Assembly: GCA_963737265.1 (NCBI GenBank)
Contig: CAVTRY010000016.1
Span: 224,001-288,000, forward strand
Direction of reading: 5' to 3'
DNA length: 64,000 bases
Source of the DNA: an uncultured delta proteobacterium
GTDB taxonomy: Bacteria; Myxococcota_A; Polyangia; Fen-1088
In this document: piece after piece, positions 1-14,479 of the stretch
Layout of the letters: the number at the start of each line of letters is the position of its first letter
Position numbering within the stretch: the stretch's first letter is position 1
Program-made: the position numbers and the translations under genes
The notes under the pieces: generated by a model
The model's input: only the letters and a program-made list of their open reading frames with translations
Databases searched by the model: none
Told to the model about the DNA's origin: nothing

Positions 1-748
1 CTTCCTCGATGCCAACGCGGACGTGATGCCGGCCTTTATTCGCGCGTGGTTCGAGGGGGCGAGAAAACTTCGCGAGGACAAGCAGTCGTCGGTCGCAGTC
101 ATTGCCAAGGCCTTCGCGCAAACCACCGAGGAGACGGCCGCGATCCTGAGCAAGATCAAACCGGCCACCTTTGCCGACAATCGAGCCTTCTTTGGCCTGG
201 AAACCGAGACCTCGCCCTATGCCACGCTGTTTACGGAAGCCGCCGAGATCTGGAAGCGCGAAGGCGTGATCAAGGAGATCCCCAATCCGCGCAAAGCCGT
301 CCGCACCAAGTTCCTGGAGGCCGTTGCCCCGGACTACGCCGGAGAAACGGTCCAAGAAGACTTCACCTTTGCGGCCAAGGGGGCCAAGGGCGAGGCGCTG
401 CTTTCCAAGAGCATGTCGATCTATTTTCGCTCCGGCTCGGCCGAGCTGGATCCCAACGCCCGCCGGGTTGTGGACGCCTTCGTCGAACGCGTGGTGGGTG
501 TGTTCCAGAACGCCTACCTGCGCGTGGAAGGAAACACTGACAACGTGGGCAATCGAAAGTCGAACGTGGCACTGTCGCGCCAGCGCGCCGAGGCCGTGGT
601 CGACTACCTTGTCACCCGGCACCGGTTCCTTCCGGCCCGCTTCGTGGCGGTCGGCAACGGACCGGACCGGCCGGTGTCCGACAACAAGACAGACCAAGGG
701 CGCGAATGGAACCGGCGCACAGATTTCCGTGTGGTGCCCAACTTCTAG
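1..748 (+). CDS. ABC-type solute-binding domain fused to a C-terminal OmpA-like peptidoglycan-binding domain (5' part outside the window)
   Basis: C-terminal OmpA motifs F.SGSAEL, VEGNTDNVG, N..LS.QRA.AV, NRRTDF; same architecture as 11036-12805. Confidence 0.8.
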   Translation, partial: FLDANADVMPAFIRAWFEGARKLREDKQSSVAVIAKAFAQTTEETAAILSKIKPATFADNRAFFGLETETSPYATLFTEAAEIWKREGVIKEIPNPRKAVRTKFLEAVAPDYAGETVQEDFTFAAKGAKGEALLSKSMSIYFRSGSAELDPNARRVVDAFVERVVGVFQNAYLRVEGNTDNVGNRKSNVALSRQRAEAVVDYLVTRHRFLPARFVAVGNGPDRPVSDNKTDQGREWNRRTDFRVVPNF

Positions 749-769
749 CGACTGAAAAGAACCAAAGCC

Positions 770-2491
770 ATGAAGCGAATCGTACTTGCCCTTCTTGCCG
801 TCCACCTTTCCCCAACCGCGCGGGCGCAATCCGCGAACGACCCCATCCCGCTCGACACCATTGCCAGACCCGCCAACCAGACCACTGGACACGGCGGACG
901 CAAGTCGGCGCGCGCACTGCCTGGCGAAAACCAGAACAAGTTGGTCGTGTTGTTGGTGGCGGACATGTTCCGCGCGGATTACTTGACCCGCTATGCTGCC
1001 GACTTTGGTGCCGGTGGATTCAAACGCTTGCTGGGTGACGGCGCGGTTTTCCTCGGCCGATACCAACAGCAGAACACCTATACGGCGGTGGGCCACGCCA
1101 TCATCGCCTCGGGTGCGTACCCGTACGTGAATGGAATCGTGCAAAACAGGTACTACAATCGCGAGCGGAAACAGGTCGAATCGATGCTCTTCGATCCCGC
1201 GTCCAAGCTGCCGGGGTCGCAAAGTACGCCCGAGGATGAAACTTCGCCGCGAAACCTTCTGGGATCGACCGTGGGGGACGAGCTCAGGCTGGCTTCTCCG
1301 TCGTCCAAGGTTGTTGCGGCTGCCATCAAGGATCGCGGGTCCATTCTGCTTGGGGGTCATCTTGGCCAGGCGTACTTCATGGCCGACGCCACCGGCGACA
1401 TGATCACCAGCAGTTACTACGCGGCGAAACTGCCCGATTGGGTCCAGGCCTTCAACGCGCGCAAGGTAGCCGATGCGGTCCTCGGCAAGACCTGGCAACG
1501 ACTGCTGCCCGCCGATCGCTACCATGAACCCGACGACTACCGCATGGAATTCGATGGCAAGGGCCTGGGGCGAGTTTTTCCGCACCAACTGACGGCCAAG
1601 GAAAAGCACCTTGGCGCGGACTACTACGCGGCCTTCACGCACACGCCGTTCGCGCTCGACTACACCTTCGAATTTGCGCGCGCGGCGCTTGACGGCGAGC
1701 AATTGGGCAAACGGGGCGTCACCGACATCTTGGCGATTTCTATTACGCCAACGGACATTGCGGGGCACGCCTTTGGTCCCTACAGTCAGGAGATGCACGA
1801 CATGGTGGTGCGGCTCGACCGTGGTTTGGCCGCCTTCCTGCCCGAACTCGACCGGCGGTTCAAAGCCGGCGAGGTCACGGTTGTGTTCACCGCGGATCAC
1901 GGGGCCGCGCCCATTCCAGAATGGAGCGACGAACACAAGCTCGGCGGTGTGCGCATCAAGAAAGCCACCATCAAGAAGCAAGTCGAAACCACGCTTGCCA
2001 CCCGCTATGGCGAGGGCAACTGGGTGCTTGCCTTGGAAGATCCCAGCGTGTACTTGAACCGCGAACTCATGGCGCAAAAAAAGCTCGACCCGGCCGAGGT
2101 AGAGCGAACCGCGGGGGAAGCCATCTTGGCCCTACCAGGATTTCTTGGGTACTTTACGCGAACGCAGATCCAGAACGGATGGATCCCGCCCACCCGCTTG
2201 GCCCAGTCCGTGGTGCGTTCGTATGCCAATCGCAGCAGCGGCGACGTCATCACCGTGGCCGCGCCATTTTCATTCTGGGGCAAGTACGCAGAGAAAGACT
2301 GGGGCACGACCCACGGAAGCCCCTATCGCTACGACACCGATGTGCCGCTCATTTTGATGGGAAAGCCATTCCGCCCCGGCTACTACGGCGAAACCAGCAT
2401 GGTGGACCTGGCCGCCACCTTGTCCGAAGTGCTGCGCCTGGCACGGCCATCCGGATGCGAGGGCGAGCCCCTGAGCGCGGCCCTGAGGTAG
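770..2491 (+). CDS. Alkaline phosphatase family (PafA-like) secreted phosphatase
   Basis: Signal peptide; motifs VADMFRADY, TYTAVGH, D.AGHAFGP, TADHG, HGSPYRYDT.VP. Confidence 0.85.
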   Translation: MKRIVLALLAVHLSPTARAQSANDPIPLDTIARPANQTTGHGGRKSARALPGENQNKLVVLLVADMFRADYLTRYAADFGAGGFKRLLGDGAVFLGRYQQQNTYTAVGHAIIASGAYPYVNGIVQNRYYNRERKQVESMLFDPASKLPGSQSTPEDETSPRNLLGSTVGDELRLASPSSKVVAAAIKDRGSILLGGHLGQAYFMADATGDMITSSYYAAKLPDWVQAFNARKVADAVLGKTWQRLLPADRYHEPDDYRMEFDGKGLGRVFPHQLTAKEKHLGADYYAAFTHTPFALDYTFEFARAALDGEQLGKRGVTDILAISITPTDIAGHAFGPYSQEMHDMVVRLDRGLAAFLPELDRRFKAGEVTVVFTADHGAAPIPEWSDEHKLGGVRIKKATIKKQVETTLATRYGEGNWVLALEDPSVYLNRELMAQKKLDPAEVERTAGEAILALPGFLGYFTRTQIQNGWIPPTRLAQSVVRSYANRSSGDVITVAAPFSFWGKYAEKDWGTTHGSPYRYDTDVPLILMGKPFRPGYYGETSMVDLAATLSEVLRLARPSGCEGEPLSAALR

Positions 2492-2555
2492 GGCACGCAC
2501 GGGTCCCCTCCGATGAAGGGTCGCGGCGAGGCAAGACGGTCTTAGCTCGAGCCAG

Positions 2556-3251
2556 TCAATCCTTCTGCCGATCCATGATGACGAGTTTTTGCCAGATTTT
2601 GCCGATGAGACCTGCTGTGAGATCTTCAAGGTCATCAACGGCGTCGAGAATGACGGGGTCGGCAAGCCCTTCGGCGTACAGCGCCGCTACCTTGCCAACC
2701 AGAGCCAACAGCTCGCAGGAATAGTCGAGGTAGCGCCGAAGCTCGACCTCGCCGAGAGTCCGTTTCGGCGACGAGGCGGTCGGGGGCGCCCCCACCAGGA
2801 TAGCCTTGGGATCCTTGGTGAGCTGATGCATGTCAACGATATGGGCGACGGTTCTCAACTTGTGAACCATCCGAAGCGTGCGGGTACGCTTCAAGCGATC
2901 CTCGATCTTAAAAAGGAAAAAGATGCCGGTGCCGAGAAAAAACAGGGTACCCAAGGTCGCCTCGCTTGCCTGGATCAGCTCCGCGAGGGCCGTGACCTGA
3001 AAGTTTACGTGCAGGTGGCGCACGGCAATGGCAAGCACGGACAAACCGGCAAGGAGGAGGAGTGAGACGCCGACTCGCAGGGGGATGTTTGGGCGTCGCA
3101 GTCGGTCGACCTCGGTGATGGAGTCGCGGGTGATCTCGGCGAGTCGGGCCGCCAGTTTGCTGAGACTCGCGTCGGGAAAGCGCTCGCGGATGCGCTGTCC
3201 GAGGCGCTCTGTCGTTCTCAGGATCTCGCCTGCGTCCAGTCGTTCGTACAT
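2556..3251 (-). CDS. Hypothetical membrane protein (2 TM)
   Basis: 231-aa ORF with two hydrophobic segments and plausible composition; function unknown. Confidence 0.65.
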   Translation of the reverse strand: MYERLDAGEILRTTERLGQRIRERFPDASLSKLAARLAEITRDSITEVDRLRRPNIPLRVGVSLLLLAGLSVLAIAVRHLHVNFQVTALAELIQASEATLGTLFFLGTGIFFLFKIEDRLKRTRTLRMVHKLRTVAHIVDMHQLTKDPKAILVGAPPTASSPKRTLGEVELRRYLDYSCELLALVGKVAALYAEGLADPVILDAVDDLEDLTAGLIGKIWQKLVIMDRQKD

Positions 3252-3331
3252 GGTGTTACGCAGGAAGCTAGGCCCAAGTCAGGCTGGTCAAGCTGCCGCC
3301 CCCTCTATATTCCCGCGAGATTCCCACCCAC

Positions 3332-3919
3332 TCAGGCTGGACCGGGCTTCACGTCGCCCACGGCACCGAAGAAAACGCGCGCACCTTGCAAACGCCCCTC
3401 CTCGGCCGCGCACTTGCTGCGCACGGATTCGAGGTCGCGCTTTAGCGTTTCCACGGCCGAGCGCTGCTCGTCGATCTGGCGCTGCAGATTGCTCATGGCA
3501 GCCTGGCGCTCGCTGGACGCCTTTTCGACGTCGGCGCGCTTGGCGTCGGCCACGGCACGCACCACGACGATCTTGCGGGCAGCGTCCCGCAGCACGTCGG
3601 TGGGCGCCTTGCCGATAGCGCCGAGAAAGGCCTTGGCCGCGGCCAGCTTCGAGGCTTGCGGCAAGCTCTCGTCGAGTCCGTGCAAAAAGCGTTCGAGCGC
3701 CTCGACTTCGTCGGTGTTGGGAATGCCCGCTTGATCGTAAAGGGCCTGGAAATCGAGTTCGCCCTGCGCCACTACCTGGGCGGGCCCGGCAAAGCTCGTC
3801 GCATCCGCGCCAGGGTCCTCGGGAACCTGGCATTTTTCGAGTTCGGCCATGGCCGCGCTCGTGGCCTCCTGGCCGGTGTCGGTTTCAACGAAGAGGGATT
3901 TGAGTTTGTTCCATGCCAT
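3332..3919 (-). CDS. Hypothetical coiled-coil protein divergent from pspA
   Basis: 195 aa; amphipathic N-terminus ([10 protein letters not shown]) and heptad-rich C-terminal half; TATAAT upstream. Confidence 0.7.
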
Positions 3920-3994
3920 GGGAGCCTCGCCTGCGCGGCGGATTATAGGTTAGACTCATCCTTTGACCCAGCCCGAGTGAACAAGGAGCGAGAT

Positions 3995-4705
3995 ATGTCC
4001 GAAGGCGGTGGATTCTTCAAGCGACTTTCGAACCTGCTGAGCGGCTTCATGAGCCTGTGGATCTCCGACGTGGAGAAGGAGCATCCGGAGATCGCCTACG
4101 AAAACGCCATCAACGCCATGGTGGAGAAATACGCCAGGCTCAAGCGCGCCACCGCCGCCATCATCCGCCGCCGCGACGAAGTCAACGAGCGCTACACGAA
4201 CCAGGCCAAAGAGCTGGCCGAGGTCACGTCGGATCTGGACGTCGCGGTGCAAACCGCCAAGGACGATCTCGCCCTCATTCTCATCCAGAAAAAGAACCAG
4301 CTGGAAAAGGAAGTCGCCGATCTCAAGACCGACCTCGAAACCGCCGGCACGGACGCAGGCAGCGCCAAGGCTTCGCTGTTGCAGGTACAGGCCGAGATTA
4401 AGAAGTTGCAGGCCGAGAAGGACAACATGCTGGCTAAGATGGAAAGCGCCAAGGCGCGCATCCGCATTCAGGAACAGCTGGACGGCCTGAGCGTGGATGC
4501 CGAGGTCAAGGCCCTCGAAAACGTGCGCGGCCACATCAAGAACACCATCGCCGAGGCCAACCTCGGCAAGGAGCTGTCCGAGTCGACGCTCGATCAGAAG
4601 CTCAAGGCCCTGCGCGCCCAGACCGGCGACGTGACCGCGCGCAGCCAGCTTGACGAGATGAAAGCCAAGATGGCGGCGAAAAAAGCCGCGGTCAAGACTC
4701 TTTGA
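3995..4705 (+). CDS. pspA: PspA/IM30 (ESCRT-III superfamily) protein
   Basis: AAGGAG RBS before ATG 3995; amphipathic N-terminal helix [15 protein letters not shown] motif, long coiled coil, about 236 aa. Confidence 0.85.
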
Positions 4706-4743
4706 TTTCTTAAAGACCCCGCTTGAAGTCGCAGGAGCCGCGC

Positions 4744-6579
4744 ATGCACCCAGCTTGGGCCGAAGAACTTCGACAACGTTACCGGCGCGGCGAGGCCAGC
4801 CAGTTCATCCTGCACGGCAATGTCTTCGATGTCGTTGCCTGGGACGGCAAGCTCATTCCGCTCGGCACCTATCTGGCCGAGAACCTGCTCGGCGAAACCA
4901 AGGACATCGTGGCGGTCTTCAATCTCGCCAGCGGCGGCACCTTGGTTCGCCGCAAGGCCGACCTGGGCGGATTCGAGGATCTGGTGGTGCAGCGCCAGCC
5001 GAGCAAGTTTCTGCCCGCCATGGAGCGCATCCTCAAGACGCGCACCAAGGTCGCCTTGGTGGTCGAGTACGCCGAGACGCTGGCCCCGGCCGCCGACGCC
5101 GCCATGATGAGCGAGGAAGATCGCACCGCGGTCGTGACCCTGCACCGCTGGTCGCTTTCGCCCGAGATCGCCGACTCGGACAACGTGGTGTTGCTGCTGG
5201 CGGAAAACCTGTCCGAGCTTCATCCCAAGCTGGTGTCCAATCCACGCATCGCCACCGTGCGCATCCCCATGCCCGACGAGGCCACCCGCCGCACCGTCGT
5301 GGATCTAGTCATGCCGGGCGCCGACGCCGCGTATGCCGCACGACTGGCCAACGTCACCGCGGGACTGCGCGCGGTGCAGATCCAGACCATCTTGCAACCC
5401 CCGCCAGCGGGCGCCGAGGACGGCGAAGAAGATCGCTTCAAGTTCATCCACGGCCTGCTGGGAGCCACGGACGCCGCCGTGCCCAGGGCGCGCAAGCTGG
5501 CCGCCATCACCAAGGGCATGGGCCGCGACGAGATCCGCGTGGTGGTGGCGCCCGACGCCGCCCAGGGAACGCCCGACGACGTCGCCAAGCGCGAACGCGA
5601 CGAAATCGACAGAATCATCACCCGGCGCAAACGCGAGATCATCGAGCGCGAATGCTACGGACTTATCGAATTCGTCGAATCGAGCCACGACTTTCGCGTG
5701 GTGGGCGGTATCGAGGGCGTGAAAACCGAGCTCGTGCGCATCGCCAAGGCCATTCGCGAAGGCCACACCGAGCGCGTGCCCATGGGCATTTTGTTCACCG
5801 GCCCCATGGGCGCGGGCAAGACCTTCGTGGCCGAGGCCTTCGCCAAGGAATCCGGGCTGACCACCATCAAGCTCAAGAGCTTCAGGTCGAAATGGGTCGG
5901 CGCCACCGAGGCGAATCTCGAACGCATCTTGCAAGTGATCCAGGCCATCGGCCAGGTGGTAGTCATCATCGACGAAGGCGACCGCTCGTTCGGCAACCAG
6001 AGCGACGGCGAGGGCGATGGTGGAACCTCGTCTCGGGTCATCGCGCGCCTCAAGGAGTTCATGTCGGACACCAGCAACCGTGGCCGCATCCTCTTCATCT
6101 TGATGACTAACCGGCCCGACAAGCTAGACGTGGACATCAAACGCGCCGGCCGCCTCGACCGCAAGGTGCCGCTGCTGTACGCCCAGACCGCCGAGGAAGT
6201 CGAAGCCGTGCTGCTGGCCCAGGTCCGCAAGCACAAGCTGACCTGGGATGTGACCTTTCCCGCGGATCGTATCGAGATTTCGCAACCCATGCTTGGACTT
6301 TCCAACGCCGACTTCGAGGCCATCACGCTGCTGGCCGCGGAATACGCCGCTGGACCCGAGATGGATCTCGTCGTCCGCATCGGCAAAGTCCACATGGTGC
6401 AAGCCATGGCGGACTACCTGCCCTCGCGCGACGGCAAGATGCTCGAATACATGGAGCTCTTGGCCGTGTTCGAGGCGTCCAATCGCCAGATGCTTCCCAA
6501 GAAATACCAAAACATGACTGCCCAGGAATTGCAGGCGCGCCTTGATGTCTTGCGCCTGGAATGCGGACAGCGGCGATGA
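4744..6579 (+). CDS. AAA+ ATPase (classical clade) with a degenerate N-terminal AAA-like domain
   Basis: Walker A GPMGAGKT, pore loop SKWVG, Walker B IIDEGD, second region of homology TNRPDKLD...RAGRLD. Confidence 0.9.
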
Positions 6580-6594
6580 CCAAGGAGACGAGCC

Positions 6595-7053
6595 ATGGAA
6601 TTTTTCCCCGAGATCCCCATTAGCGATCAGCAGGCCCAAGCCATTGCCCGCGGCCTTTACACCCTAGCCGCCGTCGACGGCGTGCACGAACGCGAAGCAG
6701 CCCTCATCGCCAACTTCTACGGCACCACGGCCGGCGGCGAGGCGCACCCTATGACCAGCCTGGCCGAGATCGAGCGGCTCGGACCGCTTTCGCCCGCGGA
6801 GCTGGCGGCCGCCTTGGCCGGCGACGACCTGCGCCAGCTGTTCGTCAAAGCGGCGCTGCTGCTCGCCTATATCGACGGCACAGTGACCGCCTCCGAACGC
6901 GCCCAGATTGCGGCGTACAGTGCCGCCCTCGGCGTTTCGGCGGATCGGCAAGCGGCCCTCGAGGAATCCGTGCGCGACCACCTGATGCAGCCCCTATCCC
7001 GCCTGGACAACAGCGAGGAAGTGGGCAAAGTCGCCAAACAGCTCGGGCGGTAG
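6595..7053 (+). CDS. TerB-like protein
   Basis: Two A..DG....E repeats (LAAVDGVHERE, LAYIDGTVTASE); AAGGAG RBS. Confidence 0.75.
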   Translation: MEFFPEIPISDQQAQAIARGLYTLAAVDGVHEREAALIANFYGTTAGGEAHPMTSLAEIERLGPLSPAELAAALAGDDLRQLFVKAALLLAYIDGTVTASERAQIAAYSAALGVSADRQAALEESVRDHLMQPLSRLDNSEEVGKVAKQLGR

Positions 7054-7272
7054 GGCAACTGGCGGGGTGAACCTCATGAAGGCAGTGGACCTTGGCATCT
7101 CCAAGGTTCGTGTGGCGCTGCCGGGGCGTGGGTAGACACGTCTTGAGTTGACTTAGTCGACTGCTTAGTCCACCCGTGAGGCATGAAGTCGGTCAATGTT
7201 CACGACGCAAAGACCAGGTACTCCCGGCTGCTGGCGATGGTCGAGCGAGGTGTCCAGGTGCTCAGCTCCGAC

Positions 7273-9054
7273 GGGTGGGTTGCACGGGTCCGGGTTTCAT
7301 GACTGGGCGGCCTGGGCTTGGGTGTGAGGCCAGAGGGCGAGCCAGGCCCCCGGGTTGTAGAAGGCAACCCTGAGCGCGACCATGGCTTCAAGGCCGACCT
7401 CGCTCCAGAGCATGCCGCCTTGCTTGCAGCGCCGGCCGACGAGGCGCTTGTTGGTGCTTTCGATGGCGGCACTGGCCAGCGGATAGCCGGCAGCGTGGTA
7501 TGCGGGGTAGTCCATCATGTGCTTGTGGCGGCTCAGGTAGCCGGTCAAGTCGTCGAGGGCTTTGACCGCTTGGCTGCCGGTGGAGCGCTGCCGCTCTTGG
7601 GCGAGGCCCGAGAGCACCTGGTCGACCTTGCCGTCCATGATGGCCTCGGTACGTGGCAAGACCCAAGATGGCACTGCTTTCTTGTCCGGCACGACCTTGT
7701 GACCTGCCTCCCAGACATGCTGCTTGGCGTGCTGGCAGTCGAGGATGCCAAGCAACGGCTGGTCGCAGAAGATCTCGTCGCTGTGCTCGATGAAGTAAGC
7801 GCCACCGTCGGAGACACGGACTACCTTCTGGCGAGACAGCACGCCCTGGGTCGTGGCGGCGGCGTGCAGCTTGTGCCAAAAGCCGTCTCGGTCGTTGAGT
7901 GTTGCGACGTAGCGCCGGTCCAGCAAGACGCCTCGGCCGGGGCTCTCCTCGCAGGCGTGTTCCCCGAGGTAGGTCAGTCCCATGCACACCTCGCGGCCGG
8001 CGACCCGTGGTGAGCGCCCGGTGGGCCCCATGGGCGAGCCAGCGACCTCGGACAGGGTACTCGGCGCCTGATGGCGAAGGGCACGTTCGCCGGTCTCGCT
8101 GACCGCTGCCGACTGTGTGGCGTTCGGGACCGCAGACGGCGCCTTCGCCTCGTCGGTCGCTTTGCGCCGTGGCTCTTGTCCTGGTTTCCAGGTCAGGACG
8201 TGAACACCGTCAACCTCAATCACGCCGAAGCCCTCTGTACGCTTGGGCGCACACAGGTCACCGCGAGCCTGGGCGTGCACCTGTTGGTCGTACTTGCTCC
8301 AATGGGCTTCGGCATCGGCCTGGGCGGCCTGGGCGGCACGCGTTCCATCTTCGGTCACCCATCGCTTGGCGGTGCTCCCGTCGGGAGCCACGGCCCACAG
8401 GTAACGGAGTTCCTCGACGGCCTCGTCGAAGCTGCCCATCCGGCAGGCCAGCCTTTCGGTCGCCTCGCGCACATCGTCGGCGTATTCGCCCGCAGGAAGG
8501 CCCCAAGCCTCGTCAAAGGCAAACCAGCTGCGGCCGCAAACACACTCGTTGCGTCGACGATCGGCTTCCACCCGACCGAATCTCGCCACGAACGTCGTTC
8601 TCTCAAATCCTCTGGATTTGGCTTGCTTTCCACAGGTGCAGACTTGTCCAGGTCCATGAGCCCGCGCGGCCTGCTGGATGACCAGTTCCATGGCTCTTCG
8701 GCCCACAGTCGACAACGTCGTCGCCAGCGCAGCCCCCAGCGTCGCCACGGACATGCCATCGCCGCGCAGCGCTTGTTGTTCGAGCTCGTTCAATTTCTGG
8801 ACGAGCGGTTCCAGAGCCTGCAAAGTCAATCCTGCGACATTGGGTCGTCTCATGGCGGTGCCTCCTTCTTGGATAGCTGAAGGCATCGCCATGAATCTCC
8901 TTCCTACGCAAATTCCTTCCATTTTGGGAACCACGCCAGGGCCCGTTTTCCGAGCGCGCCACCCACCAACTCGCCCTCGAATCAACGTCCCGTAGCGCGC
9001 TCGGAAAACGGGCCCTTCAGCCGCCACCAGAACCCGGGCCCGTGCAACCCACCC
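7273..9054 (-). mobile_element. Insertion sequence, ISKra4/ISLre2-like (Mutator-type DDE)
   Basis: 24-bp terminal IRs GGGTGGGTTGCACGGGYCCGGGTT (23/24 match); 9-bp target duplication AGCTCCGAC at 7264-7272 and 9055-9063. Confidence 0.9.
7297..8853 (-). CDS. Transposase (ISKra4/ISLre2-like)
   Basis: CxC..CxC zinc-binding region, EVDG, SDGG, LDCQHAKQH, GYPLASAAIES.NK..RRCK..G..W; AAGGAGG RBS. Confidence 0.85.
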   Translation of the reverse strand: MRRPNVAGLTLQALEPLVQKLNELEQQALRGDGMSVATLGAALATTLSTVGRRAMELVIQQAARAHGPGQVCTCGKQAKSRGFERTTFVARFGRVEADRRRNECVCGRSWFAFDEAWGLPAGEYADDVREATERLACRMGSFDEAVEELRYLWAVAPDGSTAKRWVTEDGTRAAQAAQADAEAHWSKYDQQVHAQARGDLCAPKRTEGFGVIEVDGVHVLTWKPGQEPRRKATDEAKAPSAVPNATQSAAVSETGERALRHQAPSTLSEVAGSPMGPTGRSPRVAGREVCMGLTYLGEHACEESPGRGVLLDRRYVATLNDRDGFWHKLHAAATTQGVLSRQKVVRVSDGGAYFIEHSDEIFCDQPLLGILDCQHAKQHVWEAGHKVVPDKKAVPSWVLPRTEAIMDGKVDQVLSGLAQERQRSTGSQAVKALDDLTGYLSRHKHMMDYPAYHAAGYPLASAAIESTNKRLVGRRCKQGGMLWSEVGLEAMVALRVAFYNPGAWLALWPHTQAQAAQS

Positions 9055-9139
9055 AGCTCCGACGGCCGGCTTGACCCCTACGGCATCCGGCGCCTGGCCC
9101 CGTAGCCGAATTCGTCTAGATGGCTAGTGCCGTCCGCCA

Positions 9140-9301: not shown

Positions 9302-9366
9302 CTGGGAGCCTCCGTAGTACAAATGGCATTTCGTATGACAGGGCCGCGTCCGTCAAGCAGGGCAAC

Positions 9367-10176
9367 CTACAGCGCCTTGAATGCCTGCTTCACTTCGCGC
9401 TCGACCGCCGGGAAGCCGGGGTCGATTTCCAGATCGGGACGCCAGGCCAGGCCCATTTCGACCAGGTCGTAGGTCTTCTGGATACGGGCGCCGCTGACGA
9501 TTTTTCCCGCGGCGTCGCGGTCGCGGCCGAGCATGAAGAGCGTGTCGCTGATGAGCAGAGCAGAGCGAATGTCGTGCGTGACCAGCACGACCGTATTCAG
9601 CTCGTCCATGTTGGCGACCTCGATGATGAGCTTGGTAACGTCTTCCAAGGCGGCGGGATCGAGGCCGGAGAAGGGCTCGTCCATGAGCAGAAAGGTCTTC
9701 TGTTGGACCACTTGCTGTGCAATGGCCACGCGCTGGCGCTGGCCACCCGAAAGTTGCGCCGGAAAATAGCGGGCGCGTTCGCTCAGGCGAAAACGATCCA
9801 GTAGAGCCAAACCCTTGCTGCGCGCAAGGGTGCTGGAAAGGCCGTTGGCTTCACCCGCGACGAGCAGGTTGTCGAGCACGGTGCGGTGGGCGAGCAGGGG
9901 ATAGCTTTGCATCACGAAGCCCACCGAGCCGACCGGCAAGAGCGCGCCGCCTGGTCCGCGCACGCTGCCACGGTCGGGTTCGTCGAGGCCGGCAATGAGA
10001 CGCAGAAGGCGCGTCTTGCCCACGCCCGAGGGACCGAGCAAGCCCACCACCTGTCCGGTCACCACGCCGGGCCGCACCCGATCGCGAACGTCGAAAGTCA
10101 GGCCTTGCAGGATCTGAGCGTCGCCTAGCTTCTGCCAGACATCGCGAACCGACAGCAGAATGTCGCCAGCGGCCAT
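9367..10176 (-). CDS. ABC transporter ATP-binding protein (NitT/TauT type)
   Basis: GPSGVGKT, LSGGQRQR, LLMDEPFSGLD, VTHD; TGATG coupling to the permease. Confidence 0.9.
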   Translation of the reverse strand: MAAGDILLSVRDVWQKLGDAQILQGLTFDVRDRVRPGVVTGQVVGLLGPSGVGKTRLLRLIAGLDEPDRGSVRGPGGALLPVGSVGFVMQSYPLLAHRTVLDNLLVAGEANGLSSTLARSKGLALLDRFRLSERARYFPAQLSGGQRQRVAIAQQVVQQKTFLLMDEPFSGLDPAALEDVTKLIIEVANMDELNTVVLVTHDIRSALLISDTLFMLGRDRDAAGKIVSGARIQKTYDLVEMGLAWRPDLEIDPGFPAVEREVKQAFKAL

Positions 10177-11018
10177 CAGCGCCTCACCCTTTGCAGGAGA
10201 ACGTGCGGACAAAGAATCCGCACGGACACGGCCATGAGGTAGTCGAGCAGCAACCCGAACACGAGAATGGCGATGAGCACGGCATAGACCTCGGCCAGGT
10301 GAAAATGTTTGTTCTGGTTGAGAATGAGCGCTCCCACACCACCCTCGGCGCGCGAGATGCCCTCGACCATGGTAATCATGGCCCAGCCCATGGCCAGGTT
10401 CTGGCGTAGGGTATCGAGAGCCTTGTCCAAGGTGCCGCGCACCACGACTTCCCAGAAGATGCGTCCCTCGCCCGCGCCGAGCACGCGCATGTAGTCGTAC
10501 TGCTCGCGCGGGATCTCCAGCACCGCTTGCGCCATGGCGGTGACGAAAAAGGTCGACATGCCGAAGGTGAGCAGCCAGACCTTGAGGGTATAGCCGCCGC
10601 CCGTGAGCAGGGTGAACGGGAACACCAGACCGGTCAGCCCTAAGAAACGCAGCTTGCTGATGGCGTCGACCAAAGGCCTGAAAAAGGCGATGATGCTGGC
10701 GTAGGACAGTGCCATGGAAATGGCCACGGTCAGCAGGGTGGCGTGGCAGATGAGCTTGAGGGTGGAAAACAGTTCCGGCCCCATGCCTTGCTGCCACCAC
10801 AAAGTCCCGAAGGCGCGCAGCACTTCGCCCGGCCCGGGCAGGCTCGCCCACGGTGAAGCCGACCAGACGGTGAGCGCGATCGCCACCCAAAAAGCGGTGA
10901 CCATGAGCAAAAAGGGCCCGCCCAGCACCTGGTCGGGCAGAAACGCCCGCCGTACTAGGCCGAGACGAGTGCCCGCAGAGCGTGCTTCTTTCGCAGGCCG
11001 GGACGTTGTTGGCGCCAT
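10176..11018 (-). CDS. ABC transporter permease (NitT/TauT type)
   Basis: Multiple TM segments; EAA-like loop DYMRVLGA; AEGGVGALI motif. Confidence 0.85.
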   Translation of the reverse strand: MAPTTSRPAKEARSAGTRLGLVRRAFLPDQVLGGPFLLMVTAFWVAIALTVWSASPWASLPGPGEVLRAFGTLWWQQGMGPELFSTLKLICHATLLTVAISMALSYASIIAFFRPLVDAISKLRFLGLTGLVFPFTLLTGGGYTLKVWLLTFGMSTFFVTAMAQAVLEIPREQYDYMRVLGAGEGRIFWEVVVRGTLDKALDTLRQNLAMGWAMITMVEGISRAEGGVGALILNQNKHFHLAEVYAVLIAILVFGLLLDYLMAVSVRILCPHVLLQRVRR

Positions 11019-11035
11019 GGGGAAGATCGATTGCG

Positions 11036-12805
11036 CTACTGAGACAGGCCGAGGACGATCTCGACCCGGCGATTCTTGGCGCGGCCTTCGGCGCTGTCGT
11101 TGGCTTCCAGCGGCTCGGCCGATCCGTGGGCGAAGACCTTCACGCGGCCTTCGGGGAAGTTGGCCGACGACTGCTCTTCCAGCCATTTCTTGACGGCAAA
11201 GGCGCGCGACTCGGACAGATTCTGGTTCTTTTCGACCGAGCCGACGTTGTCGGTGTGACCGTGCACTTCGACGACGGTGCCGCTGGCCACGACCAGATCT
11301 TTGAACATGGCGCGCAGCTGGGTCTGGGCTGCCGGCAAGAACTTGTTGCTGCCCGAGGCAAACTTGATGTCCCACGCGCGGCGGCTGACCACCTGCTTGA
11401 CCCGCTCCCCGGTGAAGGTGGCCAGATCCGCCTGCGCGGCGGTCGCCTTCTGCGCGCCACCGGCCAGCTCTTTCACGAAGCTGGTGTCCAGGATATCCCC
11501 GACCGGGTAATACGCAGGCATGAGCTTGGGATACTGGGACTTCACGATCTCGGCGAACACCGTGTACGTGGCGGCGAAGATGTTCGTCGAGCCAGGCACC
11601 ATGCCGAAGAGCTGCTGATTGTCGGCCAGGTTATTCACCGCCGAGCCACCCAGTTCGACCTGCTGACCTTTCTTGTCGGCCTGGTTGACCACGCGGAAAT
11701 ACTTGTACCAGTAGGCGCCGTCCTTCTCGTTGTAGACCAGGGCCGACAGCGCGGCTGCGCGGCGCAAGGCATCTTCGTCCTTCTTGAGCACGTCGCCGGC
11801 GTCGAAGGTGGCCTCGAGCATGCCGGTGACCAACTTGCGATTGGCGGCCATCCACTTCTTGCTGCCGATGATCACGTTGGGCATCTGCGAGCGGTATTCC
11901 TTTGTCGACACGATGGAAACCAAGCCGCCCTTCTTTTCGGCCACAGTCACGTCGCCCGGGGTCCAGGTCACCACCGCATTCACGCAGTGCTTTTCCTTCT
12001 TGCCCGTCTTCACGTTCTTGAGCTCGGTGCAAAAGTCGCTGACATATTTCTGGGCGGCGTCGATGTAGTCGGAGGCATTGACCCAGTTGAGCGCGTCGGG
12101 ATCGTAGGTCGTCTCGTCGGGGTTGTTGGCAATGCCATTGTCGCCCAGCCACTTGAGGGCGATGTTCCAGTCGCCGTCGCGAAGCACGCCGGCCACCAGG
12201 CCCCCACGCGCGGCCTGCGGGTTCTGCTTCCAGGCCGCGGGGCCCATGAATTTGTCCTCGCCGCGGCTATAGCCGGCCGAACCGACCACCTGAGCCACGT
12301 AGTCCGGCCCGAGCTTGCGTAGCCTGTCGTTCAGCCCCTTGAGAAAGGGCGCCGAGCCGTCGCCCATGATGGCCACGAAGTGCGCGCCTTGCGCCGGGTT
12401 GGCTTCGCCCTTTTTCAGGCCCTCCGCAAAGGCGGCCATCAGGCTCGCCATCTGATCGGTGTTGTCCTCGCGGATGAGTTTCAAATTGACGCCGTTCTTG
12501 CACATCAAGCTGCCTTCGGCGGCTTGCTTGCCACCGGTGGCATAGATGAGCCCCATCTGTGCGTTCCACGCCCAATGGTAGAAGCGCACCTCGGGCTTGT
12601 CGGCGCAGCCGGGCGCAGCAGCCACCGGGACCGCCAGCGCTGGATCCGAAGGCAACTCCGCCTTGGGTGGCACCGCCGATCTCTGGTGCTCGGCTTCGGG
12701 CGCCAGCTGGGAGAGCTTGTCGCGGTTCTTGTAGACAGCAGCGCCGACCGCGCCAAGGACCAGCAAGGTGACGAGTGTCTTCGAGAGCGGTGTCAATTTG
12801 GCCAC
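11036..12805 (-). CDS. Membrane-anchored solute-binding protein (NMT1/SsuA-like) fused to an OmpA-like domain
   Basis: N-terminal TM segment; SRGEDK and VTWTP SBP-like motifs; C-terminal HGHTDNVG, LSESRA, KNRRVEI; GTG start with GGAGA RBS. Confidence 0.85.
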   Translation of the reverse strand: MAKLTPLSKTLVTLLVLGAVGAAVYKNRDKLSQLAPEAEHQRSAVPPKAELPSDPALAVPVAAAPGCADKPEVRFYHWAWNAQMGLIYATGGKQAAEGSLMCKNGVNLKLIREDNTDQMASLMAAFAEGLKKGEANPAQGAHFVAIMGDGSAPFLKGLNDRLRKLGPDYVAQVVGSAGYSRGEDKFMGPAAWKQNPQAARGGLVAGVLRDGDWNIALKWLGDNGIANNPDETTYDPDALNWVNASDYIDAAQKYVSDFCTELKNVKTGKKEKHCVNAVVTWTPGDVTVAEKKGGLVSIVSTKEYRSQMPNVIIGSKKWMAANRKLVTGMLEATFDAGDVLKKDEDALRRAAALSALVYNEKDGAYWYKYFRVVNQADKKGQQVELGGSAVNNLADNQQLFGMVPGSTNIFAATYTVFAEIVKSQYPKLMPAYYPVGDILDTSFVKELAGGAQKATAAQADLATFTGERVKQVVSRRAWDIKFASGSNKFLPAAQTQLRAMFKDLVVASGTVVEVHGHTDNVGSVEKNQNLSESRAFAVKKWLEEQSSANFPEGRVKVFAHGSAEPLEANDSAEGRAKNRRVEIVLGLSQ

Positions 12806-12938
12806 GATGAGTCTTCTCCAAAGTTTCGGTTGTTGACGACGAGTGGCTGTAGCGTCCACTCAAACCCAAGTCGCGTCAAGGTCAGAGCGGACCATGCTAA
12901 CATGTTCGCCAAAGGACTGACGCGCCAAGAACCGGGTC

Positions 12939-13763
12939 ATGACAGAACCATCGAAAGAAAAGGACAGCCCCTTCCGGCGCGCCTTTCTTAATCAGTACAA
13001 CGGCATCCTGATGGGTGCCGCTGGCCTGTTCGCGTTGGCCACGTTTTCCTGGCTACCGCTGGCGGTGGGGGTGGGCCTCGAGGTCTTGTGGATGACCTTC
13101 GTGCCCGACAGCAGCTTTTTCAAGCGCTGGGTTGGCTTGCAGCAGTCGCGCGAAGGCCAAGAACGCATCAAGCGCGAGACCGAGGCAATCCTCCAACACC
13201 TCGATCCGAGCTACGCCCAGCGCTTCGTCGAGCTACAGCAGGTGGCCGACGAGGTGCTGACCCTGTCCAAGGAGAACCAGTCCTTGGAGACGCGGCTGGT
13301 GGAGGACGAGCTGCAGAAGATTGGCCAGGTCCTGTTTTCGTTCCTGCGCATGGCGCGCGCCCACCAGCGCCTGGCCCATTTTCTCGGCGAAAATCCAGTC
13401 GGCGAGATCAAGTCCGATCAAGCCGAGTGCACTTCCGACCTGCGCCGCGAGCAGGATCCACGCGTGCAGGCCAGTCTCAAACAGGCACTTTCGCTGGCGG
13501 AAAAGCGCCTGCGCCAGCACGAGCAGATCGCCAACTCGGCGCGAGCTCTCGCGGTCCAGATGGAAACCTTGGAGAAGGCGCTGGGTTACCTCAAGTCGCA
13601 CATCGTGGCCATCGGTAGCCACGAAGAGTTGGCCAGCGAACTCGATGGCCTGGTCATGGGTGTCGATTCGGTCGAGCGGATGGAGGCCGAGACCGGCGAC
13701 GCCCTGGCCGAGCTGCACCACTTGGCCGACTACCGCGAGAAGCGGGTGGCGACCAAAGGCTAG
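12939..13763 (+). CDS. Hypothetical membrane protein with a long coiled coil
   Basis: Two N-terminal TM segments followed by a heptad-rich helical region. Confidence 0.7.
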   Translation: MTEPSKEKDSPFRRAFLNQYNGILMGAAGLFALATFSWLPLAVGVGLEVLWMTFVPDSSFFKRWVGLQQSREGQERIKRETEAILQHLDPSYAQRFVELQQVADEVLTLSKENQSLETRLVEDELQKIGQVLFSFLRMARAHQRLAHFLGENPVGEIKSDQAECTSDLRREQDPRVQASLKQALSLAEKRLRQHEQIANSARALAVQMETLEKALGYLKSHIVAIGSHEELASELDGLVMGVDSVERMEAETGDALAELHHLADYREKRVATKG

Positions 13764-13780
13764 CAACACGGAAAGGAACC

Positions 13781-14065
13781 ATGACCACGATCCTTGCGAC
13801 GATCATCCCTGCTGCGGTTGTGCTGATCACCCTCTTCGGCCTCCTGGCCCGTGGCAACCCCAGGCCCGGGGGCGTGGCGCTGTTCTGGCGCGTGGGTTTG
13901 GTCGGCCTTGGCCTTGGCTTTGCCGTTTGGTATTTGACCTCGAAAAGCGGACTTCTGCCCGCCGTGCCGGAAGCCGTTCACCACGCCGACACGGGATTGC
14001 TCGTGGGCGCGTCCGCCATCGTCGTCATCGCGGCCCTGGGCTCTGCGCTCAAGCGCCAACGCTGA
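13781..14065 (+). CDS. Small membrane protein (3 TM)
   Basis: AAGGA RBS; three hydrophobic segments. Confidence 0.65.
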   Translation: MTTILATIIPAAVVLITLFGLLARGNPRPGGVALFWRVGLVGLGLGFAVWYLTSKSGLLPAVPEAVHHADTGLLVGASAIVVIAALGSALKRQR

Positions 14066-14104
14066 CCGTGCGCTTCCTGGCGGGCGAGAATTGCCACAAA
14101 AAAA

Positions 14105-14449: not shown

Positions 14450-14479
14450 GGTCACCTCCTTGGTCAGCTCCTTGTTTTT

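What the first reader, a model, noticed from the sequence alone, without database searches (positions are those of the whole stretch)
1..14065. Candidate envelope-remodelling system: PspA (ESCRT-III) + AAA+ ATPase + TerB + two SBP-OmpA tethers + ABC transporter
Seen: a pspA-AAA-terB operon, a divergent coiled-coil gene, a 2-TM coiled-coil gene with a small membrane partner, two SBP-OmpA fusions and a NitT/TauT-type permease/ATPase, all within 14 kb. No pspF/B/C or liaRS genes are in the window. Known: PspA/IM30 belongs to the ESCRT-III superfamily, and OmpA-like domains bind peptidoglycan. Inference: one multi-component machine couples a wall-anchored ABC sensor/transporter to ESCRT-III-like membrane repair. 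PspA-AAA neighbourhoods have been noted in comparative genomics, but I know of no functional study of this complete set.
Basis: partly seen in the sequence, partly recalled or inferred. Interest (0 to 1): 0.75.

Follow-up and report, generated by a model that had tools for sequence, protein, structure and literature searches.

The report
PspA–AAA+ membrane system with wall-tethered transporter
This stretch carries a rearranged copy of a conserved bacterial gene set that pairs a membrane-shaping PspA protein and its likely ATP-driven partner with a nutrient-type transporter whose binding protein is tied to the cell wall; the link was already noted in print but has never been tested at the bench.

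Summary
It missed three things: a PafA-like alkaline phosphatase (770-2491), an unconserved 2-TM gene (2556-3251) and a 1,782-bp ISKra4-type insertion sequence (7273-9054) between terB and the ABC genes.

The refutation test was run and the link survived. In 48 of 54 testable proteobacterial loci, eight genes lie co-linear on one strand: CC > SBP-OmpA > permease > ATPase > 2-TM coiled-coil (TMCC) > PspA > AAA+ > TerB. In all, 50 of 54 hold the ABC module beside PspA-AAA+. Several Myxococcota show the order PspA > SBP-OmpA > permease > ATPase > TMCC > AAA+.

The set is modular:
- CC/ABC/TMCC and PspA/AAA+/TerB each also occur alone.
- The window's first SBP-OmpA belongs to a separate conserved pair with PafA.
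- In three loci the transporter is gone, and an unrelated peptidoglycan-binding SBP fusion takes the place of SBP-OmpA.

Ravi et al. 2024 (mSystems) already described the PspA / two-domain AAA+ / TM protein / ABC / PBPb-OmpA neighbourhood. My four literature searches found no functional study.

Verdict: a real, conserved system and a new member of a known but uncharacterised kind. The mechanism (AAA+ remodelling of PspA polymers under control of a wall-tethered periplasmic sensor) is inferred, not shown.

The parts
1..748 (+). SBP-OmpA1 (3' 248 codons; the gene starts 793 bp upstream of the window): N-terminal TM anchor, NMT1-like solute-binding domain, C-terminal OmpA-like peptidoglycan-binding domain
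   Evidence: Pfam OmpA 3.4e-19. The full protein has NMT1_2 9.3e-10, NMT1 and OmpA. The upstream part was read from the genome. Its closest relatives (59-68% identity) sit beside PafA homologues in 4 other genomes.
770..2491 (+). PafA-like secreted alkaline phosphatase, 21 bp after SBP-OmpA1. It forms a conserved pair with SBP-OmpA1 and is not part of the PspA/ABC core.
   Evidence: NF042991 PafA 1.7e-126, below cut-off. Pfam Phosphodiest 1.1e-26. No hit in the 72 loci. Hits beside SBP-OmpA1-like genes in L116-L119.
2556..3251 (-). 2-TM protein of unknown family, downstream of CC; not conserved with the system
   Evidence: No Pfam, NCBIfam or PADLOC hit. Two hydrophobic segments. No hits in related loci. 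No similarity to the gene at the same place in L006.
3332..3919 (-). CC: short N-terminal helix, disordered acidic/proline-rich linker, small helical domain, then an ~80-residue single helix. Divergent from pspA here; first gene of the operon in Betaproteobacteria.
   Evidence: hhalign, Myxococcota CC vs Betaproteobacteria CC: probability 96.6%, E 5e-10. AF2 model pLDDT 81.9. Fold search gives only generic coiled coils.
3995..4705 (+). Divergent PspA/IM30 (ESCRT-III superfamily), the second PspA paralogue of the genome
   Evidence: PF04012 65.3 bits. Vipp1/PspA 6zvr 2.9e-10 over residues 6-226. A more canonical PspA lies on contig C7. All 30 aligned orthologues end in K-[STA]-[MLV].
4744..6579 (+). 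Two-domain AAA+ ATPase: conserved N-terminal ~315 residues of no known family, plus a classical AAA module with Walker A GPMGAGKT, Walker B VVIIDEGD, pore loop KWVG and RAGRLDR
   Evidence: PF00004 1.2e-26. p97/Cdc48 D2 1e-38 over residues 318-536. Motifs read. N-domain versus C-domain hhalign shows no similarity.
6595..7053 (+). TerB-like small cytoplasmic protein, last gene of the pspA-AAA-terB unit
   Evidence: Pfam TerB 22.3 bits, cut-off 24.4. The orthologue in L048 scores 32.9 bits. Present after the AAA gene in 51 of 54 testable proteobacterial loci.
7273..9054 (-). ISKra4-family insertion sequence, a simple insertion in the spacer between the convergent terB and ABC ATPase genes; not part of the system
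   Evidence: Transposase NF033572 3.1e-52. Ten near-full-length copies (about 1,782-1,800 bp aligned; this one included) and one 942-bp partial copy in the genome. 24-bp inverted repeats. 9-bp target duplication AGCTCCGAC.
9367..10152 (-). ABC transporter ATP-binding subunit
   Evidence: PF00005 8.7e-23. NCBIfam sulfate, phosphonate, taurine and nitrate type ATPases around 1e-30 to 1e-37, all below their cut-offs.
10176..11018 (-). Type-I ABC importer permease (BPD_transp_1), NitT/TauT-like
   Evidence: PF00528 35.3 bits against a cut-off of 26.4. Weak SaoP, NtrB, SsuC and TauC hits.
11036..12859 (-). SBP-OmpA2: N-terminal TM anchor, divergent solute-binding region, OmpA-like domain; first gene of the ABC unit
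   Evidence: Pfam OmpA 1.4e-16. TM segment at residues 17-35. 73% identical orthologue heading the same unit in L005, which matches the family HMM at 1.8e-110.
12939..13763 (+). TMCC: 2-TM hairpin plus cytoplasmic helical bundle. Divergent from SBP-OmpA2 here; lies between the ABC ATPase and PspA/AAA in fused operons.
   Evidence: hhalign, Myxococcota vs Betaproteobacteria: probability 97.8%, E 6.5e-13. AF2 model pLDDT 83.7. Family of 887 cluster representatives at E<=1e-3. No Pfam family.
13781..14065 (+). Small 3-TM protein after TMCC; not conserved with the system
   Evidence: Three hydrophobic segments. No family hit. No hit in related loci.

Best explanation
The region holds a split, IS-interrupted copy of a conserved, modular envelope system.

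Module A is a type-I ABC importer (NitT/TauT-like permease plus ATPase). Its solute-binding protein is anchored in the inner membrane by an N-terminal helix and tied to peptidoglycan by a C-terminal OmpA-like domain. Two accessory proteins go with it: the 2-TM helical-bundle protein TMCC and the soluble coiled-coil protein CC.

Module B is a divergent PspA (ESCRT-III superfamily), a two-domain classical AAA+ ATPase with intact ATPase and pore-loop motifs, and a TerB-like protein.

Shown: the gene content, the homologies, and the recurrent fusion of both modules into one co-directional operon in two phyla.

Inferred: PspA polymerises on the inner membrane. The AAA+ acts on it as an ATP-driven remodeller or disassemblase, which makes it a functional analogue of Vps4 and not an orthologue. 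TMCC is the membrane adaptor that joins the two modules. The wall-tethered binding protein reports a periplasmic or cell-wall state (a ligand, or the membrane-to-wall geometry) that governs where or when the membrane is remodelled. The transporter is dispensable for that signalling role in some lineages.

SBP-OmpA1 with PafA is a neighbouring but separate unit.
For: Gene content and homologies:
- Searches give the family assignments.

Co-occurrence in Proteobacteria:
- 72 loci were found through the AAA+ protein.
- Of 54 proteobacterial loci with enough flank, 48 carry all eight genes co-linear on one strand and 50 carry the ABC module.
- The tblastn count was 45 of 54.

Co-occurrence in Myxococcota:
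- G175, G075, G011, G150, G290 and G234 have PspA > SBP-OmpA > permease > ATPase > TMCC > AAA, with or without TerB.
- L005 and L078 keep both modules within 10 kb despite a different order.
- In the listed rows, 12 full-length SBP-OmpA homologues lie within 5 kb of the AAA gene on the same contig.

Evidence that the SBP has a role beyond transport:
- In L012, L060 and L062 the permease and ATPase are absent. SBP-OmpA is replaced by a PG_binding_1 x2 + SBP_bac_8 fusion at the same operon position. The pairing of a wall-binding and a solute-binding domain is thus kept with unrelated domains.

Other points:
- The AAA+ has Walker A, Walker B, pore-loop and arginine motifs, invariant in 35 sequences.
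- PspA has a conserved C-terminal helix, and the tail K-[STA]-[MLV] is present in 30 of 30 sequences.
- Contigs from four RNA libraries cover the whole Accumulibacter operon. One 3,432-nt contig bridges ATPase, TMCC, PspA and AAA. This is weak evidence, because contigs do not prove a single transcript.
- Ravi et al. 2024 reached the same association independently.
Against: - In the window the two modules are not one operon. pspA-AAA-terB and the ABC unit converge, separated by 531 bp of spacer plus the IS. CC and TMCC are each divergently transcribed.
- The modules are separable. CC > SBP-OmpA > permease > ATPase > TMCC stands alone in L121-L125, and G049, G271 and G240 (94-96% complete) have no AAA N-domain match. 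PspA-AAA-TerB stands alone in L004, L081, L111, L112 and L058.
- 23 of the 36 full-length SBP-OmpA homologues read are not next to the AAA gene.
- The loci were found through the AAA gene and many come from related species (about 20 from Accumulibacter), so the counts are not independent.
- No physical interaction or activity has been shown.
- The ligand is unknown.
- The homology of TMCC to Snf7/ESCRT-III stated by Ravi et al. could not be reproduced.
- Sequence comparison did not show the N-domain to be a degenerate AAA fold.
Confidence: 0.6

Rival explanations
1. There are two independent functions that merely sit together: an ordinary solute importer (sulfonate, nitrate or phosphorus-compound type) with a wall-anchored binding protein, and a separate PspA-type stress effector with its own ATPase. 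The adjacency reflects operon shuffling or co-regulation under the same condition, not a joint mechanism.
For: Each module occurs alone. In the window they are convergent units. SBP-OmpA1 pairs with the phosphatase PafA in 5 genomes including this one, and one relative's SBP passes the Phosphonate-bd cut-off. Both fit plain nutrient scavenging.
Against: 48 of 54 proteobacterial loci have all eight genes co-linear with short gaps. The adjacency is kept in a second phylum with a different gene order. TMCC sits with either module: with AAA in L080, L095 and L096, and with ABC in L121-L125. Three loci drop the transporter yet keep a wall-binding SBP in the operon, which a nutrient importer would not explain.
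Confidence: 0.15
2. It is a membrane-protein quality-control or extraction system. The Cdc48/FtsH-like AAA+ pulls TMCC, or damaged transporter subunits, out of the membrane, and PspA seals the bilayer. PspA itself is not the ATPase's substrate.
For: The AAA module is closest to Cdc48/p97, PAN and FtsH rather than Vps4. TMCC is the gene immediately upstream of the AAA in the PspA-first operons and in L080, L095 and L096.
Against: There is no protease domain or partner protease in the conserved set. PspA-AAA-TerB units exist without TMCC or any ABC gene (L004, L081, L111, L112).
Confidence: 0.12
3. It is an anti-phage or envelope-breach defence system. A wall-tethered periplasmic sensor detects envelope perturbation, and PspA, AAA+ and TerB respond.
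For: PADLOC gives domain-level hits of the OmpA domains to ZorB (7e-12) and of the AAA module to IetA (3.2e-10) and TRIP13. From recalled knowledge, TerB and PspA have historical links to phage stress.
Against: The hits cover only generic domains. No ZorA, nuclease or other effector is present and no full PADLOC system matches. The operon is near-universal across sampled Accumulibacter and Comamonadaceae species rather than patchy. Whether the flanks are defence islands was not examined.
Confidence: 0.08

Closest known systems
PspA / two-domain AAA+ / TM-'Snf7' / ABC / PBPb-OmpA gene neighbourhood of Ravi et al. 2024 (mSystems, PMC11237479; e.g. OGG56892.1, Cand. Handelsmanbacteria)
   Same: It has the same components: PspA, an AAA+ with an extra N-terminal domain, a TM helical protein just upstream of the AAA+, an ABC ATPase, a permease, and an SBP fused to OmpA. 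The order printed in their Table S3 row matches L076, L077 and L113-L115 here.
   Different: In the window the set is split into four transcription units and interrupted by an IS.

In what I read of that paper:
- TerB has 0 occurrences in the main text and supplement.
- I did not search the paper for the module separability or the PG_binding_1-SBP_bac_8 replacement.
- Coiled-coil partners are mentioned only generically.

Their 'divergent Snf7' and 'inactive AAA' calls were not reproduced by my tests. I saw passages and three Table S3 rows, not the whole supplement.
ESCRT-III / Vps4 (CdvB/CdvC) of archaea and eukaryotes
   Same: An ESCRT-III-superfamily polymer gene lies next to a classical-clade AAA+ with a pore loop, which suggests ATP-driven polymer turnover at a membrane.
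   Different: The AAA+ is not a Vps4 orthologue. It has no MIT domain, and the CdvC model scores 42 bits against a cut-off of 650. Its best matches are Cdc48/p97 D2. [quoted passage not shown]
Classical Psp response (PspF-PspABC of E. coli; LiaIH; ClgR-PspAMN of mycobacteria)
   Same: A PspA effector with a small membrane partner. TMCC is a 2-TM partner, as PspM/Rv2743c is. The Atlas's nearest cluster with a Pfam family is Rv2743c, at a score of 0.87, which is a lead only.
   Different: There is no PspB or PspC in the genome and no sigma-54 activator in the window. The Rv2743c HMM does not hit the TMCC gene. The ATPase here is a classical AAA+ and not an NtrC-type regulator.
NitT/TauT-family ABC importers (SsuABC, TauABC, NrtABCD)
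   Same: An NMT1-like SBP, a BPD_transp_1 permease and an ATPase of the sulfonate, nitrate or taurine type.
   Different: The SBP carries an N-terminal membrane anchor and a C-terminal OmpA-like wall-binding domain. The operon also includes two coiled-coil proteins and often PspA/AAA+. The ligand is unknown.

Membership tests
PspA/IM30 (PF04012; ESCRT-III superfamily) | Match to the family profile above its curated cut-off, over the full length | tested here: met
   65.3 bits against 33.9, profile positions 2-216 of 220. Vipp1/PspA 6zvr 2.9e-10 over residues 6-226.
PspA/IM30 (PF04012; ESCRT-III superfamily) | Self-assembly into rods, rings or carpets on membranes | not testable with these tools
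   Needs purified protein and electron microscopy.
Classical Psp regulon (PspF-PspABC) | PspB and PspC membrane partners | tested here: not met
   PF06667 and PF04024 give no match in the whole genome, which is 99.5% complete.
Classical Psp regulon (PspF-PspABC) | Adjacent NtrC-type sigma-54 activator (PspF) | tested here: not met
   The genome has 39 PF00158 matches and none falls within C16:224001-288000.
ESCRT-III/Vps4 system | ESCRT-III-superfamily gene adjacent to a classical AAA+ gene | tested here: met
   The PspA stop is at 4705 and the AAA start at 4744. The adjacency is kept in all loci with both genes.
ESCRT-III/Vps4 system | Vps4 orthology: N-terminal MIT domain and Vps4/CdvC-type AAA | tested here: not met
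   Residues 1-315 have no Pfam hit. CdvC NF041006 scores 42.3 bits against 650. The best solved relatives are p97/Cdc48.
Ravi et al. 2024 PspA-AAA+-ABC-PBPb/OmpA neighbourhood | PspA, ABC ATPase, permease and SBP+OmpA fusion in one neighbourhood with the AAA+ | tested here: met
   All lie within 3995-12859. The same set is seen in relatives. In the window they are not a single operon.
Ravi et al. 2024 PspA-AAA+-ABC-PBPb/OmpA neighbourhood | AAA+ with two AAA domains, the N-terminal one inactive | tested here: inconclusive
   The C-terminal domain is clear. N-domain versus C-domain hhalign gives probability 0.2%. The Atlas gives only unnamed clusters. By eye, [15 protein letters not shown] and VVLLLAEN sit where the P-loop, Walker B and sensor-1 would be; this reading rests on recalled motif positions.
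Ravi et al. 2024 PspA-AAA+-ABC-PBPb/OmpA neighbourhood | [quoted passage not shown] | tested here: inconclusive
   A 2-TM helical protein is at that position. However:
- 0 of 42 members match Snf7 or PspA among the 25 families listed of 69, and none of the 25 listed families for 98 members is Snf7 or PspA.
- The Snf7 HMM does not hit the gene.
- Profile-profile comparison with PspA gives probability 17%, E 0.0014, over 55 columns.
- The top 50 VIA fold matches are BAR-like bundles at Z 9-11, within the noise for helical proteins.
NitT/TauT-type ABC importer | NMT1-like SBP, BPD_transp_1 permease and ABC ATPase | tested here: met
   SBP-OmpA1 has NMT1_2 at 39.2 bits. The permease scores 35.3 bits on PF00528. 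The ATPase scores 81.9 bits on PF00005. The SBP region of SBP-OmpA2 has no Pfam hit of its own, but its orthologue matches the family HMM.
OmpA-like peptidoglycan-binding domain (PF00691) | Profile match; conserved Asp and Arg of the peptidoglycan-binding site | tested here: met
   69.4 and 61.0 bits against a cut-off of 27.2. TDNVG...LS..RA is present in both proteins. The identity of the binding residues is recalled, not tested.
TerB (PF05099) | Profile match above cut-off | tested here: inconclusive
   The window protein scores 22.3 bits against 24.4. The orthologue in L048 scores 32.9 bits. Orthology is shown by the family HMM at E around 1e-40 in L002-L006.
Zorya or other catalogued anti-phage systems (PADLOC) | Full set of system proteins (e.g. 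ZorA+ZorB) | tested here: not met
   There are only OmpA-domain hits to ZorB and AAA-domain hits to IetA and TRIP13. No ZorA or effector is present.

The most novel reading that the evidence does not exclude
Bacteria do have a working counterpart of the ESCRT-III/Vps4 pair. In it, a dedicated PspA paralogue is turned over by a Cdc48-like two-domain AAA+ that recognises the conserved PspA C-terminal tail. The pair is wired through a 2-TM BAR-like adaptor (TMCC) to a solute-binding protein that spans from the inner membrane to the peptidoglycan. Together they form a trans-envelope sensor-effector machine that triggers ATP-driven inner-membrane remodelling in response to a periplasmic ligand or to the membrane-to-wall distance.
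Probability: 0.3. Interest if true: 0.8.

Novelty: new member of a known kind. Interest (0 to 1): 0.5.

Why it matters
Recent reviews say that bacteria lack a Vps4-like ATPase, and that how PspA/Vipp1 polymers are regulated or taken apart is open (PMC7619361, PMC10936438; passages). This family offers a concrete, widely conserved candidate, and culturable carriers are listed (Ideonella lacteola, Aquabacterium parvum, Verminephrobacter). That makes the question directly testable.

The wall-tethered binding protein is kept even where the transporter is lost. This points to an unstudied way of coupling the cell wall or periplasm to cytoplasmic membrane remodelling.

The operon is present in nearly all sampled Accumulibacter species and is represented in wastewater metatranscriptomes. 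It may therefore matter for organisms used in phosphorus removal.

Tried and rejected
- Complex prediction of the full AAA+ (A3) with PspA (A4): score 0.00 and no verdict. This says nothing either way. Three earlier hand-ins met a full queue.
- Fold searches:
  - TMCC model: Foldseek gives nothing at E<=0.001. VIA-wide gives BAR and F-BAR bundles at Z 9-11, within the noise for helical proteins, with no ESCRT-III in the top 50.
  - CC model: only generic coiled coils at Z about 6.
- Profile searches of TMCC and CC against PDB sequences: nothing below E 0.06.
- hhalign of CC or TMCC against PspA: probability under 2% with small alignments and 17% with a 98-sequence TMCC profile.
- Snf7 and Rv2743c HMMs on the genome: no hit at TMCC.
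- AAA N-domain against C-domain: no similarity. The Atlas gives unnamed clusters.
- Composite-transposon idea for the two direct IS copies flanking -2870..9054: rejected. Copy B has a perfect 9-bp target duplication and copy A a 7-of-9 one, so they are independent insertions.
- Riboswitch or other RNA clue to the ligand: no Rfam match in window 1-16000, L048, L076 or L001.
- Promoter and terminator scan: no more sites than in shuffles.
- The 2556-3251 gene as a conserved partner: no similarity to the gene at the same place in L006.
- My first reading that L113-L115 lack PspA was wrong. A divergent PspA heads those operons.
- 27 of the 40 sampled phylum loci hold a paralogous AAA family without system partners. 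In the 21 loci examined, conserved downstream neighbours read by eye as obg (12 loci), rplU (11) and rpmA (6). These were set aside as not orthologous.
- Earlier-findings look-up was not open.

Full report
**What is in the sequence**

The window is about 63% G+C, so raw ORF lists are crowded. I chose frames by codon-position G+C and checked them with Pfam, NCBIfam and PADLOC. The window is G000:C16:224001-288000.

Reading left to right:

| Gene | Coordinates | Notes |
|---|---|---|
| SBP-OmpA1 | -793..748 (+) | Membrane-anchored solute-binding protein with NMT1-like and OmpA-like domains; truncated by the window edge |
| PafA-like phosphatase | 770-2491 (+) | 21 bp after SBP-OmpA1 |
| 2-TM gene | 2556-3251 (-) | No family |
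| CC | 3332-3919 (-) | Coiled-coil |
| PspA | 3995-4705 (+) | |
| AAA+ | 4744-6579 (+) | |
| TerB-like | 6595-7053 (+) | |
| ISKra4-type IS | 7273-9054 | |
| ABC ATPase | 9367-10152 (-) | |
| Permease | 10176-11018 (-) | |
| SBP-OmpA2 | 11036-12859 (-) | |
| TMCC | 12939-13763 (+) | 2-TM helical protein |
| 3-TM protein | 13781-14065 (+) | Small, no family |

It missed PafA, the 2556-3251 gene and the IS.

The IS has 24-bp inverted repeats and a perfect 9-bp target duplication. It is one of ten near-full-length copies in the genome, and there is also one 942-bp partial copy. A second copy in the same orientation lies at -2870..-1088 and has its own imperfect duplication (7 of 9). These are independent insertions, not a composite transposon and not the cause of the gene order.

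Without the IS, terB and the ABC ATPase gene converge across 531 bp. PspB and PspC were not found in the genome. None of the 39 sigma-54 activators is in the window. A second, more canonical PspA lies on another contig.

**The refutation test: Proteobacteria**

A scan of one genome per species with the AAA+ protein returned 72 loci: 6 from Myxococcota or Polyangia (68-73% identity) and 66 from Pseudomonadota (39-54%).

Using the Accumulibacter phosphatis locus L048 as a guide, I found one co-directional operon: CC > SBP-OmpA > permease > ATPase > TMCC > PspA > AAA+ > TerB.

Profile comparison shows that the window's CC and TMCC are homologues of the betaproteobacterial genes: probability 96.6% (E 5e-10) and 97.8% (E 6.5e-13) respectively.

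54 of the 66 loci have at least 5.9 kb upstream and 2.45 kb downstream of the AAA start. An HMM scan of those 54 gave:
- 48 with all eight genes co-linear on one strand;
- 2 lacking only TerB;
- 3 lacking permease and ATPase;
- 1 with only PspA and AAA+.

A cruder tblastn count gave 45 of 54.

Two caveats apply. The loci were found through the AAA gene, and many are related species (about 20 from Accumulibacter), so these are not independent events.

**The refutation test: the window's own phylum**

The AAA N-domain matched 85 of 301 sampled genomes. I fetched 40 of the 84 foreign hits, mostly the best-scoring ones, and scanned them with family HMMs.

27 hold a shorter paralogous AAA family with no system partners. 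Its conserved downstream neighbours (in 12, 11 and 6 of the 21 loci examined) read by eye as obg, rplU and rpmA. I set these aside.

The other 13 show these arrangements:
- CC > PspA > SBP-OmpA > permease > ATPase > TMCC > AAA > TerB (L076, L077).
- The same order split over two contig ends in G011 (L079 with L120).
- Divergent PspA > SBP-OmpA > permease > ATPase > TMCC > AAA (L113-L115). The PspA was recognised only.
- A split arrangement like the window's (L078).
- PspA > TMCC > AAA, with or without TerB (L080, L095, L096).
- PspA, AAA and TerB alone (L081, L111, L112).

Among the six Myxococcota loci:
- L005 keeps both modules within 10 kb in yet another order, with two unrelated genes (DUF1592 and DUF1552) between them.
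- L006 has SBP-OmpA, TMCC, CC and the PspA unit.
- L004 has only PspA-AAA-TerB within 10 kb upstream and 6 kb downstream.

**The reverse direction**

I searched SBP-OmpA1 against the same 301 genomes. That call lists 150 of 1,140 rows, and I read the full-length matches from the listed rows. There are 36 foreign ones.

- 12 lie within 5 kb of the AAA match on the same contig, and a thirteenth is G011.
- The four closest relatives of SBP-OmpA1 (59-68% identity; G121, G071, G076, G135) sit next to or near PafA homologues, on contigs other than the AAA gene. SBP-OmpA1 with PafA is therefore a separate conserved pair.
- Five further loci that I examined (G049, G271, G240, G026, G096) are CC > SBP-OmpA > permease > ATPase > TMCC units with no PspA or AAA in the 2.7-4.7 kb that follow.
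- G049, G271 and G240 had no AAA N-domain match at all. G096 has TerB > PspA > AAA on another contig.

The system therefore consists of two separable modules that are frequently, but not always, joined.

**A telling variant**

In L012, L060 and L062 the permease and ATPase are missing. SBP-OmpA is replaced, at the same place between CC and TMCC, by a small Sel1-like protein plus a protein with two PG_binding_1 domains and an SBP_bac_8 domain.

A wall-binding domain fused to a solute-binding domain is thus kept with unrelated folds while the transporter is lost. This argues that the tethered binding protein does more than feed an importer.

**The proteins**

- **PspA** aligns over its full length with solved Vipp1/PspA. 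All 30 aligned orthologues share a C-terminal helix and end in K-[STA]-[MLV].
- **The AAA+** has a classical module closest to p97/Cdc48 D2 (1e-38). Walker A, Walker B, the KWVG pore loop and the arginine residues are invariant in 35 sequences. It is not a Vps4 orthologue: it has no MIT domain and the CdvC model scores 42 bits against 650. Its N-terminal 315 residues are strongly conserved but match nothing. Ravi et al. call this region an inactive AAA domain. By eye the motif positions fit, but I could not show it.
- **TMCC** folds confidently (pLDDT 83.7) as two TM helices plus a helical bundle. It belongs to a large uncharacterised family of 887 cluster representatives at E<=1e-3. None of my tests links it to Snf7 or PspA. 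The resemblance to BAR domains (Z 9-11) is within the noise for helical proteins. A language-model lead to mycobacterial PspM/Rv2743c (score 0.87) had no HMM support.
- **CC** is a short N-terminal helix, a disordered linker, a small helical domain and an ~80-residue helix.
- **The SBP** is of the NMT1/SsuA/NrtA kind. One relative also passes the Phosphonate-bd cut-off. The ligand is unknown.

**Expression**

Contigs from four metatranscriptome runs cover all 30 bins of the Accumulibacter operon. One contig of 3,432 nt bridges ATPase, TMCC, PspA and AAA. Another, of 2,687 nt, bridges SBP-OmpA to TMCC.

Contigs cannot prove a single transcript, and DNA carry-over is possible. This is weak support only.

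**Literature**

- **Ravi et al. 2024** (PMC11237479; I read passages of the main text and of one supplementary file). It describes bacterial PspA with a two-domain AAA+, a membrane-anchored 'divergent Snf7' and coiled-coil proteins. [quoted passage not shown] TerB is not mentioned there (0 occurrences).
- **Popp et al. 2022** (passages) does not describe the set.
- **A 2025 review** (PMC7619361, passages) says a Vps4-like ATPase appears absent in bacteria.
- **Makarova et al. 2024** (PMC10936438, passages) confine ESCRT systems to archaea and eukaryotes. They note that some archaeal ESCRT loci carry a ProX binding protein, an interesting parallel.
- Four full-text searches (listings only for the other papers) found no functional study. 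The library lacks most subscription journals.

**Mechanism**

I commit to the following, with about 0.6 confidence in the functional link and about 0.35 in the details.

1. PspA assembles on the inner membrane.
2. The AAA+ threads or remodels it, as a functional analogue of Vps4.
3. TMCC is the membrane adaptor shared by both modules.
4. The SBP, anchored both in the membrane and in the wall, reports a periplasmic ligand or the envelope geometry.
5. The ABC importer either transmits that signal or takes up the ligand.

Shown: the homologies and the synteny. Inferred: every interaction and activity. The complex prediction gave no verdict.

**Verdict**

The system is real and conserved, but it is already in print as a comparative-genomics observation, so this locus is a new, rearranged member of a known, uncharacterised kind.

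- a quantified eight-gene core that includes CC and TerB;
- the two-module structure;
- the SBP-OmpA1/PafA pair as a separate unit;
- the non-homologous replacement of the tethered SBP;
- the conserved PspA tail.

Noticed in passing
window 7273-9054, and C16 221131-222912 (window -2870..-1088): An active-looking ISKra4-family IS: 1,782 bp, 24-bp inverted repeats, 9-bp target duplication. The genome holds ten near-full-length copies (99.4-100% identity, this one included) and one 942-bp partial copy. Two direct copies flank the roughly 10-kb SBP-OmpA1...TerB segment, which could make it prone to deletion.
   Followed up: yes
window 1-2491; L116-L119: SBP-OmpA1 and a PafA-like alkaline phosphatase form a conserved pair in five genomes including this one. 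One related SBP passes the Phosphonate-bd cut-off. Together these hint at a phosphorus-containing ligand for this SBP branch.
   Followed up: partly
PspA C-termini: window 4600-4705 and the 29 orthologues in alignment A4: All 30 PspA orthologues of this system end in K-[STA]-[MLV] after a variable Ala/Gln-rich linker and a conserved helix TARxQL[DE]xxK. This could be a recognition tail for the AAA+.
   Followed up: partly
L082-L094, L097-L110 (27 loci from the same phylum): A paralogous 570-600-residue two-domain AAA family occurs without system partners. In the 21 loci examined, conserved downstream neighbours (12, 11 and 6 loci) read by eye as obg, rplU and rpmA. An upstream coiled-coil ORF (7 loci) and an FHA-like ORF (5 loci, also read by eye) recur as well. 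Its function is unknown.
   Followed up: partly
L001:3325-5358 (-), about 9 kb upstream of pspA: A 677-residue MFS-transporter / spermidine-synthase fusion. Ravi et al. report PspA neighbourhoods with spermine-synthase/7TM fusions. Here it lies beyond an IS and SurA-like genes, so a link is doubtful.
   Followed up: no
window 14105-15892 (-): A HIT-family hydrolase and a FliI/T3SS-type ATPase (PF00006 2.2e-87, T3SS_ATPase_C) directly follow the finding. This presumably marks the edge of a flagellar or injectisome-type cluster.
   Followed up: no
L114:11706-13061 (+): In G290 an FHA / sigma-54 activator / HTH_8 regulator lies about 1 kb downstream of the AAA+ gene. It could be a regulator of that operon.
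   Followed up: no
L048:4100-12300: The Accumulibacter operon is fully represented in contigs of four wastewater or bioreactor metatranscriptome runs from different studies.
   Followed up: partly
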